A model generated the notes under the pieces. The model made no database searches. It worked only from the letters and a program-made list of their open reading frames with translations, and was not told the DNA's origin. Position numbers and translations under genes: made by a program. From Candidatus Nanopusillus sp. (GTDB lineage Archaea; Nanobdellota; Nanobdellia; Nanobdellales; Nanobdellaceae), in NCBI GenBank assembly GCA_036845085.1, contig DAIUEN010000029.1:1-6736 (forward strand): a stretch of DNA of 6,736 bases, read 5' to 3'. This document shows, one piece after another, positions 71 to 6,736 of the stretch. Each line of letters opens with the position of its first letter. Within the stretch, counting starts at the first letter, position 1.

Positions 71-81
71 AATAAATAAAA
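71..81 (-). terminator. Oligo-T tract immediately 3' of the candidate H/ACA RNA
   Basis: The minus strand reads ACA-TTTTATTTATT. Archaeal RNA polymerase terminates at oligo-T runs. The AT-rich background makes this weak evidence. Confidence 0.3.
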
Positions 82-140
82 TGTCCCCCGGCCATCGTTA
101 CCAATACTCATTCCATCATATTGGTTCTACCAACCGGGGT
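82..140 (-). ncRNA. Candidate single-hairpin box H/ACA guide sRNA (archaeal type, K-loop plus 3' ACA)
   Basis: Minus strand 5'->3': A-CCCCGG(139-134)-UUGGUAGA(133-126)-ACCAAUA(125-119)-UGAUGGAAUGAG(118-107)-UAUUGGU(106-100)-AACGAUGG(99-92)-CCGGGG(91-86)-G-ACA(84-82)-UUUUAUUUAUU. The lower stem has 6 GC pairs, plus 2 possible U-G pairs. There is an internal two-sided pocket and a 7-bp upper stem. The apical loop can form tandem sheared G117-A108 / A116-G109 pairs plus U115-U110, the L7Ae-type K-loop signature. ACA lies 1 nt after the lower stem and 15 nt from the base of the upper stem. A T-run follows. It is a GC-rich island in AT-rich intergenic DNA. Confidence 0.6.
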
Positions 141-164
141 ATATTTATTAATTCTTAATTAAAT

Positions 165-194: not shown

Positions 195-1094
195 ATGCTA
201 ACCAAAAAAGATATAGAAATGATACTAGAGAAGGTAAAAGAACACAATTTAAAATTTTATAATGAAAAATTAAACGTAGAAATAAAATTACTAGACTTAA
301 GTGATATAAAAATAGAAAAAAATAGGAATTATGGATTCATAGATTCCTCTTATATTAACGGTATTATAGGACCATATAGTTATATATATGCAAGAGCAGT
401 TATTGTTTCACCAAAATTTCTAGACGAAATTGCATTTTTTGATATAATAGCAGATCTTTTTGTTTCTTTTGAAAATTCTGAGAAAGAACCGGTAGATATA
501 AATAATATTTCGGCTCTAATAGCTAAAAGCTTAGAATACAGTCTTGCTAGAAAATATTCTGATCTTTATATTTTTATGGACGGATCTATAATCTCAGATG
601 CAATATTATATTCAAAGTTTAAGGATAAACTAAATTATGAAAATATAGAATCTATAAGAAAAAAATTTATAGAAGACTTTTCTTATATGTTAAACAAAAA
701 ATTGATCTCTATCGCTAAAAGAATTTTACATTCTAATATGTATGGATATACTACTTCAGATATGATACTACTATTGAATAAATTTCCAGAAGATGAATTT
801 TATACTGAAATCAGTGAATATTTATTATCTCCACAAAATAAAAAAATATATATTTCTTACTTTAGAGCTAGAAAGAAAGATCATATATACAGAATCGAAG
901 CATTAGATAATATAAGTAAAGAAGAATTTAAAGAAATAATTTTCGAAACAATATACAAAAATAAATCTTATCCAAAATATTTAAAAGTTGCACATAATTT
1001 GTGTAAAGTTAATAATAAAGAAAAACTAATGTTAGAAAATATATTAAGGAGTTTGTTAGGATATAGTTTTTCTGTTGGTTGGGAAACTAAATAA
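195..1094 (+). CDS. NurA-domain-like nuclease (putative); otherwise hypothetical protein
   Basis: ATG-started 299-aa ORF. Its motifs occur in the order and approximate spacing I associate with the NurA (RNase H-like) fold: GFIDSS (D50), SLEYS (E114), LYIFMDGSII (D129), LISIAKR, YPKYLKVAHNLCKV (H267). The assignment comes from remembered motif patterns, not from a search. Confidence 0.5.
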   Translation: MLTKKDIEMILEKVKEHNLKFYNEKLNVEIKLLDLSDIKIEKNRNYGFIDSSYINGIIGPYSYIYARAVIVSPKFLDEIAFFDIIADLFVSFENSEKEPVDINNISALIAKSLEYSLARKYSDLYIFMDGSIISDAILYSKFKDKLNYENIESIRKKFIEDFSYMLNKKLISIAKRILHSNMYGYTTSDMILLLNKFPEDEFYTEISEYLLSPQNKKIYISYFRARKKDHIYRIEALDNISKEEFKEIIFETIYKNKSYPKYLKVAHNLCKVNNKEKLMLENILRSLLGYSFSVGWETK

Positions 1095-2511
1095 ATCTAT
1101 AATAACTCTTATCTTTAAAGTCTATCAAATCTATTCCTATATTTCTTAGTCTAGATCTTATATAGTCAGAAATCTCGTAATCTTTTCTTTCTCTTAATTT
1201 ATTTCTAATTTCAATTATTAATTCTATCAAATTATTTAATATTTCCATATTTTCTTTTTTTCCATAGAATATATCATCCCATACTGCGTATATTTTATTT
1301 ACAACATTGTAAAATTCGTAGGCTGTATAGTATAAAGTAAAAACTTTTTTATTTATTACTTCTTTATTAATAAATCTTGTAGCTTCTAGTAATATAGATG
1401 TGCTTAAAGTAGTATCTATGTCATCTAGTATAGCATAAATAAACTTCTTTTCATATTCTAAAAGTTTTTTCCATATTACATAATCTTCATTGTCTAGCTT
1501 AAAGGTTCTATCTAATGAATATAACGTAGTAATTACTGTCTTAATAGTAGAAGTAATATAATTATAATTTTCTATTGCCTGATTTATACTATTTTCATTT
1601 AAATCTATAGGATCTCTATAATGAACTGAAATAAGAAAAAACCTAGATGACATAGGGCCATACAAATTAATAAATTCATCAGCAGGAATTATGTTTTTAA
1701 GAGATTTAGACATTTTTTGTCCATTAACTGTTAAATATCCAAAATGAATCCAATATTTTACCCATGGTTTAACTTTATATCTTGATTCTGATTGTGCAAT
1801 TTCGTTTTCATGGTGCGGGAATATTAAATCTTGTCCACCAGAATGAATATCAAATTGGATACCTAAATACTTTGAAGACATTGTTGAACATTCGATATGC
1901 CATCCTGGTCTTCCTTCGCCAATAGAAGTAATCCAATAAGGTTCTCCTTCTTTTTTGAATTTCCATAAAGCAAAATCATATGGATGCTTTTTATCTTGTA
2001 TAAGATCTATTTCTTGATTCCATAAATCTTTGTTTAAATTTCCAGATAATTTTCCATATTCTGAAAATTTGTCTACATCAAAATATATACTATATTTTCC
2101 AAAATATGCATATCCATCTCTTATTAAGTCTTTTATAAATTTTTCTATATCTTCGATATGTTCTGTTACTAAAGGATTTATATAAAATGGTAAATTATTA
2201 ATCTTTTTAATCACTTCTAAATGATATTTTATATTTCTCTTTGGAATTTCATGCCAGTTCTCTATTTTTTCTTCTTCTTTTGCTTTGTTAATTATTTTAT
2301 CATCTATATCTGTAAAATTACTAATAGCTATATCTACGTATCCTAAAAATCTTAAAGTTCTTCTTATTACATCTAATGCTATTTCAGATCTTAGATGACC
2401 TACATGCGATTTTTCATAAGGAGTTATACCGCAATGATATATTCTTACAAATGGATATTCTATAGGTTCAAATATTTCTTTTTTCTTAGTTAGTGTATTA
2501 TAAATATACAA
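1087..2511 (-). CDS. cysS: Cysteine--tRNA ligase (class I cysteinyl-tRNA synthetase)
   Basis: 474 aa. N-terminus is xYIYNTLTKKKEIFEP. The HIGH motif is HVGH within CGITPYEKSHVGHLRS. CysRS-specific RPGWHIECS and FPHHENEIAQSE motifs are present. KMSKS is present as GQKMSKSLKN. The start codon is TTG at 2509-2511, with an in-frame TAA 4 codons upstream, so no ATG or GVG alternative exists. Confidence 0.95.
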   Translation of the reverse strand: MYIYNTLTKKKEIFEPIEYPFVRIYHCGITPYEKSHVGHLRSEIALDVIRRTLRFLGYVDIAISNFTDIDDKIINKAKEEEKIENWHEIPKRNIKYHLEVIKKINNLPFYINPLVTEHIEDIEKFIKDLIRDGYAYFGKYSIYFDVDKFSEYGKLSGNLNKDLWNQEIDLIQDKKHPYDFALWKFKKEGEPYWITSIGEGRPGWHIECSTMSSKYLGIQFDIHSGGQDLIFPHHENEIAQSESRYKVKPWVKYWIHFGYLTVNGQKMSKSLKNIIPADEFINLYGPMSSRFFLISVHYRDPIDLNENSINQAIENYNYITSTIKTVITTLYSLDRTFKLDNEDYVIWKKLLEYEKKFIYAILDDIDTTLSTSILLEATRFINKEVINKKVFTLYYTAYEFYNVVNKIYAVWDDIFYGKKENMEILNNLIELIIEIRNKLRERKDYEISDYIRSRLRNIGIDLIDFKDKSYYRFI

Positions 2512-2517: not shown

Positions 2518-2568
2518 GATTGTTTAGTTCCATAAATATATTGGAAGTAAAAATCTATTTAAATGTAT

Positions 2569-2652
2569 TGCGGCGGAGGGGATTTGAACCCCTGGCGGAT
2601 CTTTTCCATTCGGACCTAAACCGAACCCCTTTGACCGCTCGGGCACCGCCGC
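2569..2652 (-). tRNA. tRNA-Leu (anticodon UAG), class II with long variable arm, no encoded CCA
   Basis: Hand-folded minus-strand sequence: GCGGCGG UG CCCG AGCGGUCAA AGGG G UUCGG UUUAGGU CCGAA UGGAAAAGAUCCGCC AGGGG UUCAAAU CCCCU CCGCCGC A. The 7-bp acceptor stem is all GC, the T-loop is UUCAAAU, the anticodon loop is UU-UAG-GU, and the variable region is 15 nt. Confidence 0.9.
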
Positions 2653-2653
2653 A

Positions 2654-2729
2654 AGCCGCCGACGGGATTCGAACCCGTGATTAAAGAGGGTCTGCAGCCC
2701 TCCCCCTTTGACCGCTCGGGCACGGCGGC
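2654..2729 (-). tRNA. tRNA-Cys (anticodon GCA), discriminator U73, no encoded CCA
   Basis: Hand-folded minus-strand sequence: GCCGCCG UG CCCG AGCGGUCAA AGGG G GAGGG CUGCAGA CCCUC UUUAAUC ACGGG UUCGAAU CCCGU CGGCGGC U. The anticodon loop is CU-GCA-GA. The U discriminator fits known tRNA-Cys identity. The 7-nt AT-rich variable loop is unusual. Confidence 0.85.
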
Positions 2730-2782: not shown

Positions 2783-5700
2783 TTAGATTATATTAAATAA
2801 TAATAAAATTGATAATATTCCAATAGCTATAGAAATTATCTTAATTAGTTCTATTTTTTCAGATATTATTAATTTTTGCTGTGTATAGCTAGAAACTTCT
2901 TCACTATGAGTTAATACATATACAGGAACTGTTGCATTTATATTATTCGTTCCATATATACTTATACATTGTACATTTATCAACAGATTATCAACTCCTG
3001 GCTGTATTCCTAATATTTCTATAGTTCCATATACACTTTTTAATCCAGGTATTGTTACGTTATTTGTTTGTATTCCTTCTATTTTATTACTCAATATTTG
3101 TATATAGTTTCTTTGAGGAACTACCAATACACTACAGTTTATATCTGAAGGTACAAGGTTTACTATAGCATATTGTAATGTACTTTGTTGTCCTTGGTAA
3201 AGTGATATAACATTTGCTTGTAGTGCTATTCCGAAAATATTATTTGTAGAATATATAAGAGAATTATAGAATGCGTAATATCTTTTGAACTCTGCGTATT
3301 GATTTTTTGATATTATCGTTGTATTACAATATTGAGAGGTACACATTCCGGAAGTATAAATAAATGTAGAATTACATATTCTTGAAAATGGCAGTCCATT
3401 GAATTCTATATAACATTCTAAAGTATTTATATCTTTTATTTCAAATGTTGTTGGTGGTTGCAATTGTGTTCTATCTAGTGGTCTTATTAATTCCGATATT
3501 GGAATTACAACTGAATAATTATAAATATATGTATTCCATCCATAGATTGTAAATGTCATATTATAATCTTTTGGACTACACGATGTATTAGTTATATTTA
3601 TCTTTATTTTGTAATGTTGTTGTTGTCCCGGATCTATATTTATAGGATTATCTTTCGATATAATTTGTATACATGACGGATTATAATATATATTGTTTAC
3701 AGATACATTTTGTGCTTGAACAGGACCTAAATTATTTATTAATAATATTATGTCGGATGGATAACCATAAGTTATTTTAGAAAGATTTTGATTTGTCATA
3801 ATTTCTAATTTAACCCATCTTATTTGTACATTATTGTTTGTATATATTTTTAAATCATTACAAGCTGTTAGATTATAATAATTCATTACAGAAACGTTAT
3901 AATATATGCTAAAATCTTGATGTAATCCTATATTAGTTGGGTAGTATATAAAAATATCGTAAACACTTTTTGCAGGTAATATAAATGATCTATTATATTT
4001 ATTTCCTAGTATATCATAATTAATATTTACTATAAAACTATAATTTTCGCTATTATTTATACTTCCTACATATATAGGAGCTCCAGGATTCGTATTGTAG
4101 TTATCTGGATAATATGTTAAGTTATATAAACTCACTTGGGGTGAATAATCACAATTTAATATTAGTAATGTATTATTGTAATTTGAAGAAACAGGGACAA
4201 ATCCTATAGGATAGGCATTTACCAATCCTGGATAAACACTAAGAAATTCTGCGTATGACGTAAGATTATATGAATAACTACTAAGATTATTTATATAATC
4301 TTTTATTACATCTTTATTTCCACAACTTTCATTTAAATAATCTGAAAGATTTACAGTAACATTATTCAGTAACAAAGCATATTTATATATTCTTTCCCAA
4401 TTATCCAATAACCATGCAGTATCCTTATTTTTTGTAGCATTTTTAACTTCTAATAGATATATACTATAATTTTCTAGATAATTTGTATAATTTGAATATG
4501 CACCAAAACAATTTTTAGTAGAATTATTACTTAAAAGATATTGAGTAATATTATATACTACTATAGTATAATTGTATAAGTAATCTGATTTATTGTATAA
4601 TTCTCCTAAGTATTGTTCAGTATATTTTATATATCCTATACTACAGAGATCGGGATTTCCTACTGGACAAATATAGCTAGGAGATGGAGAATCACAGACT
4701 GCTTTTAGTACATAAGCCATTAGGGTATATTTTCCAAACTCACTACTACTAAAAGTCTTATAATCTAAAGAATTTCTGCCCTTAACAGGAGTACTCCAGC
4801 TTGCATTAGGATATACTATTCCATAATTTTTATATTGATTAAATATAAGATAATATGTAAGATCATATCCGCTATTTAAATAATTCTTAAAACTTACAGT
4901 ACCATTTATACTACCAGTTATCAAAGTTTTTGGAGATGCATAATAGTACAACCAATATACCGGAACTGGAGTACCAGATTCTTTAACCGCATTTGAACAT
5001 AGCGCATTATAACTTCCTGAAATACTAATTCCGATAGTAGTATTTGGTATTAATACATACATCTTTTCTCCTGTTATAGCATCATATATTATAGTATAAT
5101 AAGTTCCGCTGTTTGGTCCATTATATGATACATAATAACTACTACTAATAGCATTTGCCTTAAGTTCACCAGCATGGCTGCATGTAGAGTTAGTAAATAA
5201 TGAAGATTGTCCATATATATTGTTTTGCATTAATATTGTTACTAAGAGCAGTAATAAAATTACAAATATTTTTCTTTTCTTCATGAGATAAATTAATAAC
5301 GCCATAATTATAATAATTATAGCTATCAAAAGATATACTTTACTTGACTTTATACTCTGTTGTAACTCTGGTATATTAGGGGTTGTAATATTTTCATATG
5401 TAACATTTGTGATATTATATTCTTTTTGAGATCTTGATATATTCCATTTATTTGAATAATAATCACTTTGAAAAGTAACTATATAGTTTCCATATTCTCT
5501 AAATGTATAATTTACACAATCATTATTAATATTACTAGAATACTTAATGTTAAATGGGCTATTTAAATAAATAAACAGATTGCCTTGTATCTTAGAACAT
5601 ATATAAAAGTAGTCTTCTGTATAATTTACAGAAATTAGATTATTTGGAGCTATTCCGTAAAAATTATTTCTATTTATAACATAATAGGTACAATAATTGT

Positions 5701-6736
5701 ATTCTAAATTATTATTTGATGTCAAATTTATACATAATGAGAATTCATCTTTGTTTAATTCTATCCTATCATATATATATGTGAATAAAGTAGTAGTATA
5801 ATAAGATATATCTCCAATATTTATTGTTTTATATAAATTAAGTTCTGGAGAATACATTATAACCGAAACATTCTTCGTTATGGGATATGTATAATGGTCT
5901 GGAGATGGTGCTACAATTATCATTAAAGAACCATCTCCCGCTAAATAGATACCATCTAATCTTGTAGTAGGACCAAGTATTATAAATCTTAATCTATCTA
6001 AAGCCTGTAATCTTCCATCAGAATATACTTCTATTCTAAAAGAATAAACATTGGGCTTTATATTAGTTAAATCAATATATGGTATTTTTATATTATTTTC
6101 TCCAACAGATAAAGACACATTAAATTCCTTTTCATATATTGGAGTATATAAAATATCATCCCATGGAGATATTCTAATTTTTATAGTAGCATTTGAATCA
6201 AAGCTAGAATATAAACTTACAGTTAAGTTAATGTATTCTCTTACTCCATATCCAACAGCACCACTTCCAGTTTCGATTTTAGTATCTGTACTACTACTAC
6301 TATTTACTATTTCGCTCCAAGTCAAAAGAGTTGGGCTAGTCATATAAGTATTTTGCTTATCAATATATATCCAAGGATATTTACCTGAAGGATTAATTAC
6401 TTTAAATTCTTTATATTGTCCAGGCAAAAATATAAATGGTATTCCGTTTATGTTCCATAAGGGAGTATATAGATATGACACCAAATAATATTCTCCATTT
6501 AAAGTATCAATAGGTACTGAATAATTTAGGCTAATATTAATATTCTGACCTGGTTCTAAGTATAAATCTTTTATTAAATATTCATATATAACTTGATGTT
6601 TATTTAAATGGAAAGGATATATGTATTCATTTCCTTCTTTTTTTATAATTTGTATTACTAAGCTAACATTTGGTAGATAATATTTGTCACCATTTCTAAT
6701 AAATATATTGTAATATAATGTTTCTCTAGAATATAC
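2783..6736 (-). CDS. Giant secreted/membrane-anchored surface glycoprotein candidate, 5'-partial (continues beyond the right window edge)
   Basis: The track ORF 2783-6484 begins at a TTG, not an ATG. I translated the same frame by hand from 6485 to 6736 and found no stop: ...VYSRETLYYNIFIRNGDKYYLPNVSLVIQIIKKEGNEYIYPFHLNKHQVIYEYLIKDLYLEPGQNINISLNYSVPIDTLNGEYY-L-VSYLYTPLWN. The product is rich in N/Y/I/S/T. I hand-counted about 47 N-X-S/T sequons in the 1233 aa. It has a C-terminal hydrophobic anchor and an internal hydrophobic hairpin. I recognise no catalytic motifs. Confidence 0.75.
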   Translation of the reverse strand, partial: VYSRETLYYNIFIRNGDKYYLPNVSLVIQIIKKEGNEYIYPFHLNKHQVIYEYLIKDLYLEPGQNINISLNYSVPIDTLNGEYYLVSYLYTPLWNINGIPFIFLPGQYKEFKVINPSGKYPWIYIDKQNTYMTSPTLLTWSEIVNSSSSTDTKIETGSGAVGYGVREYINLTVSLYSSFDSNATIKIRISPWDDILYTPIYEKEFNVSLSVGENNIKIPYIDLTNIKPNVYSFRIEVYSDGRLQALDRLRFIILGPTTRLDGIYLAGDGSLMIIVAPSPDHYTYPITKNVSVIMYSPELNLYKTINIGDISYYTTTLFTYIYDRIELNKDEFSLCINLTSNNNLEYNYCTYYVINRNNFYGIAPNNLISVNYTEDYFYICSKIQGNLFIYLNSPFNIKYSSNINNDCVNYTFREYGNYIVTFQSDYYSNKWNISRSQKEYNITNVTYENITTPNIPELQQSIKSSKVYLLIAIIIIIMALLIYLMKKRKIFVILLLLLVTILMQNNIYGQSSLFTNSTCSHAGELKANAISSSYYVSYNGPNSGTYYTIIYDAITGEKMYVLIPNTTIGISISGSYNALCSNAVKESGTPVPVYWLYYYASPKTLITGSINGTVSFKNYLNSGYDLTYYLIFNQYKNYGIVYPNASWSTPVKGRNSLDYKTFSSSEFGKYTLMAYVLKAVCDSPSPSYICPVGNPDLCSIGYIKYTEQYLGELYNKSDYLYNYTIVVYNITQYLLSNNSTKNCFGAYSNYTNYLENYSIYLLEVKNATKNKDTAWLLDNWERIYKYALLLNNVTVNLSDYLNESCGNKDVIKDYINNLSSYSYNLTSYAEFLSVYPGLVNAYPIGFVPVSSNYNNTLLILNCDYSPQVSLYNLTYYPDNYNTNPGAPIYVGSINNSENYSFIVNINYDILGNKYNRSFILPAKSVYDIFIYYPTNIGLHQDFSIYYNVSVMNYYNLTACNDLKIYTNNNVQIRWVKLEIMTNQNLSKITYGYPSDIILLINNLGPVQAQNVSVNNIYYNPSCIQIISKDNPINIDPGQQQHYKIKINITNTSCSPKDYNMTFTIYGWNTYIYNYSVVIPISELIRPLDRTQLQPPTTFEIKDINTLECYIEFNGLPFSRICNSTFIYTSGMCTSQYCNTTIISKNQYAEFKRYYAFYNSLIYSTNNIFGIALQANVISLYQGQQSTLQYAIVNLVPSDINCSVLVVPQRNYIQILSNKIEGIQTNNVTIPGLKSVYGTIEILGIQPGVDNLLINVQCISIYGTNNINATVPVYVLTHSEEVSSYTQQKLIISEKIELIKIISIAIGILSILLLFNII
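2786..2854 (-). other. C-terminal transmembrane anchor of the giant protein
   Basis: The last 23 residues are IELIKIISIAIGILSILLLFNII, followed by TAA at 2783-2785. Confidence 0.7.
5228..5338 (-). other. Internal membrane hairpin: TM helix, KKRK, then signal-peptide-like helix, with an in-frame ATG at 5282-5284
   Basis: The translation reads ...SSK-VYLLIAIIIIIMALLIYL-MKKRK-IFVILLLLLVTILM-QNNIYG-QSS... The second half (MKKRKIFVILLLLLVTILMQNNIYG/QSS) has the n-region, h-region and small-residue layout of a Sec signal peptide. The first half looks like a C-terminal anchor. No stop codon separates them. Confidence 0.7.

What the first reader, a model, noticed from the sequence alone, without database searches (positions are those of the whole stretch)
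82..140. Unannotated GC-rich hairpin with K-loop and 3' ACA: candidate archaeal H/ACA pseudouridylation guide RNA
The 57-194 intergenic spacer contains a 59-nt island that is far more GC-rich than its surroundings. Read on the minus strand it has every architectural element of a single-hairpin archaeal H/ACA sRNA. The lower stem is GC-rich (CCCCGG/CCGGGG, extendable by two U-G pairs). The two-stranded internal loop (5' UUGGUAGA, 3' AACGAUGG) could be the pseudouridylation pocket. The upper stem has 7 bp (ACCAAUA/UAUUGGU). The apical loop UGAUGGAAUGAG can form the tandem sheared G-A/A-G plus U-U arrangement of an L7Ae-binding K-loop. An ACA triplet follows the stem, 15 nt from the upper-stem base, which matches the known 14-16 nt ACA-to-target ruler. 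An oligo-T tract follows. On the plus strand these motifs disappear (UGU, no G-A pairs), which fixes the orientation. With standard pocket geometry the target would resemble 5'-CCAUCGUU-UN-UCUACCAA-3' (partial pairing is sufficient). I cannot tell which rRNA or tRNA site that is. No ORF-based annotation would report this gene.
Basis: partly seen in the sequence, partly recalled or inferred. Interest (0 to 1): 0.7.

Follow-up and report, generated by a model that had tools for sequence, protein, structure and literature searches.

The report
Unannotated H/ACA guide RNA in Nanoarchaeota
The GC-rich hairpin is very probably a real small RNA gene of the kind that guides conversion of uridine to pseudouridine; it is conserved in tiny symbiotic hot-spring archaea (Nanopusillaceae) but missing from RNA databases, and its target is still unknown.

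Summary
Window 82-139 (minus strand) folds into a lower stem, two-stranded pocket, 7-bp upper stem and 12-nt loop with GA...GA. ACA lies exactly 15 nt after the upper stem and an oligo-U tract follows.

The window comes from a Nanopusillaceae archaeon (about 26% GC). I found seven homologues in relatives, including Nanobdella aerobiophila and strain YN1. All lie antisense-upstream of the NurA gene.

Across the eight sequences, 99% of stem cells pair and 5 of 13 pairs show compensatory double changes. The GA...GA dinucleotides and ACA never vary, and the ACA distance stays at 14-16 nt. A descriptor for the full architecture finds only these loci in 130 kb (0.05 hits per shuffled set).

Rfam has no match, and the only published nanoarchaeal H/ACA RNA (N. 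equitans) is unrelated in sequence. This is a new family of a known kind.

In five relatives a tRNA-Ser gene starts 1-5 nt after ACA, which suggests a dicistronic precursor.

Still open:
- **Target.** I could not obtain the lineage's rRNA, and the tests I could run found nothing above background.
- **Proteins.** Presence of Cbf5/Nop10/Gar1 genes was not tested.
- **Expression.** Not testable here.

The parts
134..139 (-). Lower stem, 5' strand (CCCCGG)
   Evidence: It pairs with 86-91. The closing pair covaries among homologues as G-C / U-A / C-G.
126..133 (-). 5' strand of the pseudouridylation pocket (UUGGUAGA). The likely guide core is the 5 nt next to the upper stem (GUAGA).
   Evidence: Variants in homologues are UUAGACGA (5 sequences), UUCGAAGA and UUGACGA. 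The leading UU can pair with the last two nt of the 3' strand: U.G/U.G here, U-A/U-A in Nanobdella.
119..125 (-). Upper stem, 5' strand (ACCAAUA)
   Evidence: Three of its 7 pairs show compensatory double changes (two of them only in the L158 homologue, the third in L158 and L011), and a fourth pair changes on one side to G.U.
107..118 (-). Apical K-loop: U-GA-UGGAAU-GA-G. It has tandem sheared G.A candidates and is the presumed L7Ae binding site.
   Evidence: GA...GA is invariant in all 8 homologues while the other loop bases vary. The 'GA stem' is 7 + 1 + 2 = 10, the value found in H/ACA RNP crystal structures (PMC4652768).
100..106 (-). Upper stem, 3' strand (UAUUGGU)
92..99 (-). 3' strand of the pocket (AACGAUGG). 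It is the best-conserved guide element.
   Evidence: Identical in 6 of 8 homologues. L158 has ACGAUGG and Nanobdella has AUCGAAA(G).
86..91 (-). Lower stem, 3' strand (CCGGGG)
82..84 (-). ACA box, 15 nt 3' of the upper stem
   Evidence: ACA is invariant in all 8 homologues at 14 nt (L158), 15 nt (six sequences) or 16 nt (L011, which has a bulged C).
71..81 (-). Oligo-U tract (UUUUAUUUAUU), a plausible archaeal termination signal
   Evidence: Function is inferred. In five relatives this position is instead occupied by a tRNA-Ser gene.

Best explanation
Window ~80-142 (minus strand) encodes a ~60-65-nt single-hairpin box H/ACA small RNA of a Nanopusillaceae (Nanoarchaeota) archaeon.

Inferred mechanism, by analogy with characterised archaeal H/ACA RNPs:
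- L7Ae binds the apical K-loop.
- Cbf5, with Nop10 and Gar1, docks on the lower stem and the ACA box.
- A substrate RNA pairs with the two pocket strands, its 5' half with (A)ACGAUGG and its 3' half with the 5' strand.
- This places an unpaired uridine at the base of the upper stem, 15 nt from ACA, where Cbf5 isomerises it to pseudouridine.

Predicted target: 5'-(CCA)UCGU(U)-U-N-UCUAC-3' for this organism, and ...UCGUC... for most relatives. The target is most likely in rRNA.

Shown here: the RNA architecture, its conservation, the covariation and the strand. Inferred: protein binding, catalysis and target class. Unknown: the actual target site.

In relatives the gene abuts tRNA-Ser. There the sRNA 3' end is probably produced by 5' processing of the tRNA from a dicistronic precursor. 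In this window the gene ends in an oligo-U tract instead.
For: **Architecture.** It is exact in the sequence and reproduced by MFE folding (z = -3.4).

**Organism.** NurA homologues place the window in Nanopusillaceae, near Nanobdella aerobiophila and strain YN1. GC-rich islands in a ~25% GC genome mark structured RNAs, and the only other island in the window is a tRNA pair.

**Homologues.** Seven were found, all antisense-upstream of NurA although NurA proteins are only 43-54% identical. The covariance model scores them at 52-92 bits, on the minus strand only, with no other hits in ~200 kb.

**Covariation**: 99% of 104 stem cells pair, and 5 of 13 pairs have double-sided changes (8 cells). 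0 of 500 shuffles reach the covariation score. Slid controls give 36-48% pairing.

**Signature elements.** GA...GA of the loop and ACA are invariant. The ACA distance is 14-16 nt and the GA stem is 10. These fall within the published constraints: ACA 14-16 nt and GA stem 8-11, 10 in crystal structures (PMC4652768); 14-15 nt (PMC2377435).

**Guide conservation pattern.** The unpaired 3' pocket strand is almost invariant while the 5' strand varies. This matches the published finding that the 3'-guide interaction matters more than the 5' one (PMC2377435).

**Chance.** The descriptor search gives 0.05 hits per shuffled set.

**Precedent.** An abundant H/ACA sRNA and its modification machinery are documented in the related N. 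equitans (PMC3491384).
Against: No target was found.
- E. coli 16S/23S/5S gives a best score of 12/16, which is at background level (background).
- ~130 kb of local Nanopusillaceae DNA, including its tRNAs, gives nothing.
- Two collection scans built on my 23S H88/H74-junction hypothesis returned only chance matches or bacterial 23S.
- I could not obtain any Nanopusillaceae rRNA, so these negatives are weak.

The 5' pocket strand differs at 2-3 of 8 positions between lineages. A guide aimed at a conserved rRNA site would not be expected to vary this much.

The upper stem has 7 Watson-Crick pairs, one more than the 5-6 bp rule derived for Pyrococcus (PMC2377435).

There is no Rfam hit even at E <= 10.

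Cbf5/Nop10/Gar1 genes were not checked in this lineage, and there are no expression data. One NurA-CysRS lineage (L012-L020) has no copy upstream of NurA or anywhere in the ~20 kb examined.
Confidence: 0.85

Rival explanations
1. It is an H/ACA-shaped, L7Ae/Cbf5-binding RNA that does not guide a modification. It could be an orphan acting as an rRNA-folding chaperone, or a degenerating guide whose 5' arm is drifting.
For: No target was identified. The 5' pocket strand exists in four variants among eight sequences. The pocket strands are partly self-complementary (CG/CG) and close up in the MFE folds of several homologues.
Against: The 3' pocket strand is unpaired in the consensus structure yet almost invariant (AACGAUGG in 6 of 8). 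This implies selection on its sequence, as expected for a guide. The 14-16 nt ACA ruler is strictly kept even where indels occur (L158, L011). A conserved 3' guide with a variable 5' guide matches functional Pyrococcus guides (PMC2377435). The target search was crippled by the lack of rRNA from the lineage.
Confidence: 0.08
2. It is a structured 5' leader of the tRNA-Ser precursor, acting as a processing or stability element rather than an independent sRNA.
For: In five relatives the tRNA-Ser gene starts 1-5 nt after ACA on the same strand.
Against: The element is equally well conserved where no tRNA follows. In this window it is followed by oligo-U and a convergent ORF. In Nanobdella a 1320-aa gene separates it from tRNA-Ser. 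In L158 it overlaps the end of the upstream gene. A leader would not need a K-loop, an ACA at a fixed 15 nt, or conserved unpaired strands.
Confidence: 0.03
3. It is a DNA-level or transcription-level inverted repeat, such as a terminator for the convergent upstream ORF or a protein-binding palindrome, and not an RNA gene.
For: It lies between a convergent ORF end (57) and a divergent gene start (195). The plus strand also folds significantly (z = -3.0).
Against: The terminator scan finds nothing on either strand. The internal-loop and apical-loop sequences are conserved asymmetrically: ACA and GA...GA make sense on one strand only. G.U pairs occur (L158, and the lower-stem extensions), and these would be C-A mismatches on the other strand. 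In relatives the neighbouring gene arrangement differs while the element is retained.
Confidence: 0.02

Closest known systems
Single-hairpin, K-loop-type archaeal box H/ACA sRNAs of Thermococcales (e.g. Pyrococcus Pab91/Pf9-type motifs; H/ACA RNP crystal structures 2HVY, 3LWO, 3HAX as cited in PMC4652768)
   Same: - The layout: lower stem, two-stranded pocket, upper stem closed directly by a K-loop with tandem G.A pairs.
- ACA 14-15 nt from the pocket top.
- GA stem of 10.
- A ~60-nt RNA.
- The 3' guide is more constrained than the 5' guide.

   Different: - No detectable sequence or covariance-model similarity to any Rfam family.
- The upper stem is A/U-rich and has 7 rather than 5-6 Watson-Crick pairs.
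- The guide sequences are different and the target is unknown.
- The host is a reduced-genome DPANN symbiont.
The 159-nt H/ACA sRNA of Nanoarchaeum equitans (Randau 2012, PMC3491384)
   Same: Same phylum and same RNA class. It is an intergenic gene with its own A/T-rich promoter region and T-stretch terminator.
   Different: The N. equitans RNA is a GC-rich double hairpin with internal K-turn bulges. It lies between tyrosyl-tRNA synthetase and NEQ392. By inspection of the sequence, its pocket sequences (e.g. ACGAGAGU / UGUUAGUGU) are unrelated. The RNA here is a single hairpin with a K-loop next to NurA. The two are not homologous by sequence.
Dicistronic tRNA-sRNA genes of N. equitans (C/D box sRNA8 immediately downstream of tRNA-Val; PMC3491384)
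   Same: A guide sRNA gene abuts a tRNA gene with almost no spacer. This implies that tRNA end-processing enzymes also create an sRNA end.
   Different: Here the sRNA is an H/ACA RNA and lies upstream of the tRNA. The shared cut would be the tRNA 5' cleavage (RNase P-type), not the 3' cut by RNase Z. This arrangement is found in relatives but not in this window.
Sulfolobales / Aeropyrum H/ACA sRNAs that guide Psi35 of pre-tRNA-Tyr (PMC2651775)
   Same: They are a precedent for an archaeal H/ACA guide with a non-rRNA (tRNA) target. That matters here because no rRNA target has been found.
   Different: The predicted target (…UCGU(U)-UN-UC…) does not fit a GUA anticodon loop. No tRNA in the loci examined matches.

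Membership tests
Archaeal box H/ACA guide sRNA | Hairpin made of a lower stem, a large two-stranded internal loop (pocket) and an upper stem | tested here: met
   Direct reading. MFE folds of this RNA and five homologues give z = -3.0 to -6.4.
Archaeal box H/ACA guide sRNA | ANA (usually ACA) box 14-16 nt 3' of the base pair that closes the pocket on the upper-stem side | tested here: met
   ACA lies at 15 nt in the window and five homologues, 14 nt in L158 and 16 nt in L011. Constraints are from PMC4652768 and PMC2377435.
Archaeal box H/ACA guide sRNA | K-turn or K-loop (tandem sheared G.A) in or on top of the upper stem, with a GA stem of 8-11 bp | tested here: met
   The loop is xGA-N5-6-GAx, with GA...GA invariant in 8 of 8 sequences. 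The GA stem is 10 (definition). This is a sequence-level test only. L7Ae binding was not tested.
Archaeal box H/ACA guide sRNA | Lower stem of about 7-9 bp | tested here: met
   There are 6 G-C-rich Watson-Crick pairs, plus 2-3 further U.G/A-U pairs that the MFE adds. In Nanobdella the extension is kept by U.G -> U-A changes. That gives 8-9 bp if the extension forms and 6-7 bp if not.
Archaeal box H/ACA guide sRNA | Structure conserved in relatives through compensatory changes | tested here: met
   Eight sequences. 99% of cells are paired, 5 of 13 pairs have double-sided changes, and slid controls give 36-48%.
Archaeal box H/ACA guide sRNA | Bipartite complementarity of the pocket strands to a stable RNA (rRNA or tRNA) around an unpaired U-N | tested here: inconclusive
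   Nothing exceeded background in E. coli rRNA or local loci. Scans for one specific 23S hypothesis were negative. No rRNA of Nanopusillaceae could be retrieved with the remaining search quotas.
Archaeal box H/ACA guide sRNA | Host genome encodes Cbf5, Nop10, Gar1 and L7Ae | not tested
   None of these genes lies in the ~130 kb of loci examined. Literature gives only indirect support: N. equitans has an abundant H/ACA sRNA (PMC3491384), and N. acidilobi is reported to truly lack only four ribosomal-protein genes (bioRxiv 10.1101/2021.01.31.429008). That paper does not name L7Ae among the losses it lists for these small genomes, but its Table 1 was not read.
Archaeal box H/ACA guide sRNA | Expressed as a discrete small RNA that is bound by the H/ACA proteins and directs pseudouridine formation | not testable with these tools
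   Needs RNA-seq or northern blotting, co-IP, in vitro reconstitution and pseudouridine mapping.
Any curated Rfam RNA family (including archaeal H/ACA families) | Covariance-model match at the gathering score | tested here: not met
   No hit at gathering in the window. No hit overlapping the hairpin body even at E <= 10 in 1-260: two chance matches (E = 1 and 6) touch only its outer edge, at 133-186 and 126-204.
N. equitans H/ACA sRNA (Randau 2012) | Sequence homology or shared guide sequences | tested here: not met
   The sequence from the paper's supplement shares no stem, loop or pocket sequence with this family. This was judged by inspection; no alignment statistic was computed.
Box C/D sRNA | Box C (RUGAUGA) near the 5' end and box D (CUGA) near the 3' end | tested here: not met
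   The window loop contains UGAUGG, but relatives have UGAAAAG or AGAAAAU. There is no CUGA at the 3' end.

The most novel reading that the evidence does not exclude
This may be the single, lineage-specific H/ACA guide of Nanopusillaceae, directing a pseudouridine at a site that is not one of the classic conserved archaeal positions. The site could be a variable rRNA segment or a non-rRNA substrate. Its 5' guide arm is being remodelled between genera while the 3' arm is fixed. Its 3' end would be generated by 5' processing of the abutting tRNA-Ser. That would be an H/ACA-tRNA co-maturation mode not described so far.
Probability: 0.25. Interest if true: 0.55.

Novelty: new member of a known kind. 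Interest (0 to 1): 0.4.

Why it matters
Nanopusillaceae have some of the smallest archaeal genomes (about 0.6-0.8 Mb). Which RNA-modification functions they keep shows what is indispensable for a hyperthermophilic ribosome.

Their genome annotations list only tRNAs and rRNAs; N. acidilobi has 46 RNAs (PMC4935971). This conserved guide RNA is therefore missing from current gene sets and from Rfam.

The family supplies a covariance model, a predicted target motif and a genetically linked tRNA-Ser arrangement. All three can be tested in the cultivated Nanobdella and Nanopusillus co-cultures.

The finding is useful but unsurprising. H/ACA guides are expected in archaea, and one is already known in N. 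equitans.

Tried and rejected
**1. Target at the 23S H88/H74 junction (E. coli ~2416-2433, CCAUCGCU-CA-ACGGAUAA).**
- This was the top E. coli site at 12/16 and resembled both guide variants.
- A genome-contig scan (GTTATCCC N9-13 TTRGWMGANAANCGA) gave 3 non-rRNA chance hits.
- A metagenome scan (CYWTCGWTT N18-48 GGGATAACAGGCTGAT) gave 17 hits: three non-rRNA chance matches, and the rest 23S-like with the bacterial-type sequence; the five submitted to Rfam all matched the bacterial LSU model. None had the 3'-arm complement.

**2. Viral-contig scans** for the sRNA and for the target motif gave 0 hits and >=120 chance hits. Uninformative.

**3. Target in local DNA, including tRNAs and the adjacent tRNA-Ser.** Best scores were 11-12.5 of 16 in A/T-rich coding sequence, which is background.

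**4. Pyrococcus-like 16S/23S typed from memory, as a lead only.** Nothing scored above 10.5 of 16. This is not evidence.

**5. rRNA fragments of N. equitans** listed as C/D targets. None contains the predicted motif.

**6. Rfam.** No family matches.

**7. Other sources of rRNA.** I looked for rRNA genes in all fetched Nanopusillaceae loci and found none. A lottery of further genome look-ups was judged not worth a whole-database search.

**8. Cbf5 search.** Not run. I had no close query, so Nanopusillaceae hits would probably be buried under thousands of closer archaeal hits.

Full report
**Observation.**

The minus strand of window 71-140 reads A-CCCCGG-UUGGUAGA-ACCAAUA-UGAUGGAAUGAG-UAUUGGU-AACGAUGG-CCGGGG-G-ACA-UUUUAUUUAUU. 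ACA (84-82) begins 15 nt after the last base of the upper stem (100).

The segment has 50% GC inside a spacer of 13-28% GC. With a 50-nt sliding window, the only GC islands in the whole 6.7-kb window are this element and the tRNA-Leu/tRNA-Cys pair at 2552-2754.

RNAfold returns the two stems: -23.7 kcal/mol, z = -3.4, and none of 200 shuffles folds as well. The complementary strand folds less well but still significantly, so energy alone does not decide the strand.

I wrote a strict descriptor for the whole architecture: 6-bp lower stem, 5-10-nt pocket strands, 7-bp upper stem, xGA...GAx loop of 10-14 nt, and ACA 14-16 nt downstream. It finds only this element and its homologues in 130.5 kb of related DNA on both strands. 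It finds 0.05 hits per block-shuffled copy of that DNA.

**Where the window comes from.**

The flanking genes are as follows:
- a partial ORF ending at 57 (+)
- NurA nuclease, 195-1094 (+)
- cysteinyl-tRNA synthetase, 1087-2511 (-)
- two tRNAs
- a 1233-aa protein rich in N-x-S/T motifs, with no Pfam match

NurA homologues are 40-55% identical. They belong to Nanobdella aerobiophila, 'Nanoarchaeota archaeon YN1' and several Nanopusillaceae MAGs. The same contig exists in an ENA hot-spring-type assembly. The host is therefore a ~25% GC, reduced-genome DPANN symbiont.

**Comparative evidence.**

I fetched the NurA loci of relatives. A homologous element lies on the strand opposite NurA, 33-55 nt upstream of its start codon, in seven of them:

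| Source | Locus and coordinates |
|---|---|
| YN1 | L004 9906-9968 |
| JGI metagenome contig | L005 9904-9966 |
| JGI metagenome contig | L011 9905-9968 |
| NCBI MAG | L010 8918-8980 |
| NCBI MAG | L159 320-382 |
| N. aerobiophila | L002 6855-6918 |
| More distant ENA contig | L158 9281-9340 |

A covariance model built from six of them scores all eight at 52-92 bits, only on that strand. It finds nothing else in ~200 kb.

On the model-based alignment, 99% of 104 stem cells are standard pairs. Five of 13 pairs show changes on both sides:
- The lower-stem closing pair is G-C, U-A or C-G.
- The third lower-stem pair is C-G or U-A.
- Three upper-stem pairs change from A-U to G-C.

No shuffle reaches the observed covariation score. 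Sliding the 3' partners by 1-3 columns drops pairing to 36-48%.

The GA...GA of the apical loop and the ACA never vary, although the other loop bases do. Where indels occur, the ACA distance still stays at 14, 15 or 16 nt. The RNA is much better conserved (86% mean column identity) than the adjacent protein (about 50%).

**Fit to the family.**

| Published constraint | Source | This family |
|---|---|---|
| Lower stem 7-9 bp | PMC4652768, | 6 strong pairs plus 2-3 weak ones |
| ACA 14-16 nt from the pocket-closing pair | PMC4652768, | 14-16 nt |
| GA stem 8-11 bp, 10 in all crystal structures | PMC4652768, | Exactly 10 |
| 14-15 nt ruler | PMC2377435, | 14-16 nt |
| Upper helix 5-6 bp | PMC2377435, | 7 Watson-Crick pairs |
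| 3' guide matters more than the 5' guide | PMC2377435, | 3' strand conserved, 5' strand variable |
| U-N-N triplet tolerated | PMC2377435, | Compatible with the 1-nt-shorter L158 pocket |

The weak lower-stem pairs are kept in Nanobdella by U.G -> U-A changes. The only deviation from the constraints is the upper helix, which is one pair longer than the Pyrococcus rule.

The 3' pocket strand is AACGAUGG in 6 of 8 sequences, ACGAUGG in L158 and AUCGAAA(G) in Nanobdella. The 5' strand exists as UUAGACGA (5 sequences), UUGGUAGA (this window), UUCGAAGA and UUGACGA. This is the asymmetry expected from the Pyrococcus work.

The Nanobdella changes suggest that the outer two or three nucleotides of each pocket strand extend the lower stem. 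The working guides are probably about 5 nt each: (A)ACGA and GACGA, GUAGA or GAAGA.

**Not in databases.**

Rfam 15 has no match at gathering score. Even at E <= 10 no match overlaps the hairpin body; two chance matches (E = 1 and 6) touch only its outer edge. The single H/ACA sRNA described in Nanoarchaeota is a 159-nt GC-rich double hairpin with K-turn bulges between NEQ389 and NEQ392 of N. equitans (PMC3491384). It shares no stem, loop or guide sequence with this family.

The N. acidilobi genome paper lists 46 RNAs, of which 43 are tRNAs (PMC4935971). That leaves no room for sRNAs. A library search found no paper combining Nanopusillus or Nanobdella with sRNA or pseudouridine.

**Gene context and maturation (inferred).**

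In YN1, L005, L159, L011 and L010 a tRNA-Ser gene (GGA or GCU anticodon) begins 1, 5, 5, 4 and 3 nt after ACA on the same strand. This suggests a dicistronic sRNA-tRNA precursor in which the cut at the tRNA 5' end also forms the sRNA 3' end. A Nanopusillaceae MAG encodes an RNase P p29 subunit (L013).

In this window, in L158 and in Nanobdella the tRNA is not adjacent. Here the gene ends in UUUUAUUUAUU. So the element is an independent unit, not a tRNA leader.

A/T-rich TATA-like boxes lie 20-30 nt upstream in all copies. In 24% GC DNA that is not discriminating.

**The target: unresolved.**

With standard geometry the substrate should read 5'-(CCA)UCGU(U)-U-N-UCUAC-3' in this organism and ...UCGUC... 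in most relatives.

- I could not obtain any Nanopusillaceae rRNA. None lies in the fetched loci.
- E. coli rRNAs give a best site of 12/16 at 23S ~2424. That is no better than the background seen in random A/T-rich DNA.
- I spent the single genome-collection scan and the single metagenome scan on that 23S hypothesis. They returned only chance hits or bacterial-type 23S without the 3'-arm complement.
- Viral-contig scans, the N. equitans rRNA fragments and memory-typed Pyrococcus rRNAs (leads only) gave nothing.
- No local tRNA matches.

The negative result is therefore weak. It says only that the site is not an obvious universally conserved motif.

**Rivals.**

- *Terminator or DNA palindrome.* It is excluded by the strand-asymmetric conservation, the G.U pairs and the terminator scan.
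- *tRNA-Ser leader.* It is excluded by conservation where no tRNA follows.
- *C/D box RNA.* It is excluded because the box-like UGAUGG is not conserved.
- *H/ACA-shaped RNA without guide function.* This cannot be excluded until a target is found. However, the near-invariance of an unpaired 8-nt strand argues for base-pairing with something.

**Verdict.**

This is a bona fide, conserved and previously unannotated single-hairpin box H/ACA sRNA family of Nanopusillaceae. It is a new member of a known kind.

Protein partners, expression and the modified uridine remain to be shown. Fetching the rRNAs of AP019769.1 and AP031373.1 and searching them with each genome's own guide would settle the target within minutes.

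Noticed in passing
window 2568-2729 (-): tRNA-Cys(GCA) and tRNA-Leu(UAG) abut with a 0-1 nt spacer (ARAGORN 2654-2729 and 2568-2653; Rfam 2654-2729 and 2569-2652). They look like a tightly packed dicistronic tRNA pair, so a single cut would have to serve as the 3' end of one and the 5' end of the other.
   Followed up: no
L004 9823-9968, L005 9817-9966, L159 232-382, L011 ~9820-9968, L010 8832-8980 (all minus strand): In five relatives the H/ACA sRNA gene is followed after 1-5 nt by a tRNA-Ser gene. The anticodon is GGA in four and GCU in L010. In Nanobdella a 1320-aa ORF (L002 2822-6784) sits between the sRNA and tRNA-Ser(GCU), and in this window the tRNA is absent.
   Followed up: partly
L158 10283-10340 (-): A GC island directly after the NurA stop reads, on the minus strand, AUGAUGA-CGUGGUCCUCA-CAUGA...AUGAAGA-GGUUGCGCCGCUG-CUGA. 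This looks like a box C/D methylation guide sRNA, at the position where other relatives have tRNA-His.
   Followed up: no
L013 203-514: A Nanopusillaceae MAG encodes an RNase P/MRP p29 (PF01868) subunit. N. equitans is known for lacking RNase P. This bears on how the sRNA-tRNA-Ser junction could be cut.
   Followed up: no
window 1087-1094: NurA (+) and cysteinyl-tRNA synthetase (-) are convergent and their 3' ends overlap by 8 nt. The same NurA-CysRS overlap occurs in the L012-L020 lineage. That lineage has only 12 nt upstream of NurA and no copy of the sRNA in the ~20 kb examined.
   Followed up: partly
window 2783-6484 (-): A 1233-aa ORF has no Pfam match. It is very rich in N-x-S/T sequons, Tyr and Asn. 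It has a strongly hydrophobic segment plus a second signal-like stretch near residue 390-430, and a C-terminal hydrophobic anchor. It is probably a glycosylated surface protein, or two fused ones. Large unannotated ORFs also flank NurA in relatives (655-743 aa downstream of NurA in L002 and L004, and the 1320-aa ORF upstream in L002).
   Followed up: no
L029, L032, L037 (metagenome contigs): Three bacterial 23S rRNA genes carry an ~18-nt insertion (…CUUUCGAUUGUAGGAUCGAAGAAGCUCAUCGGAUAAAAG…) between helix 88 and the GGAUAAAAG segment near the peptidyl-transferase centre.
   Followed up: no
L004 10940-11011, L005 10934-11005, L002 7869-7940, L010 9975-10047, L159 1349-1421 (all minus): In five relatives a tRNA-His gene on the opposite strand begins at, or overlaps by one base, the NurA stop codon. 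In the three checked (L002, L010, L159) ARAGORN calls it tRNA-His; L004 and L005 are assigned by position only. In these relatives NurA is thus bracketed on both sides by small RNA genes.
   Followed up: no
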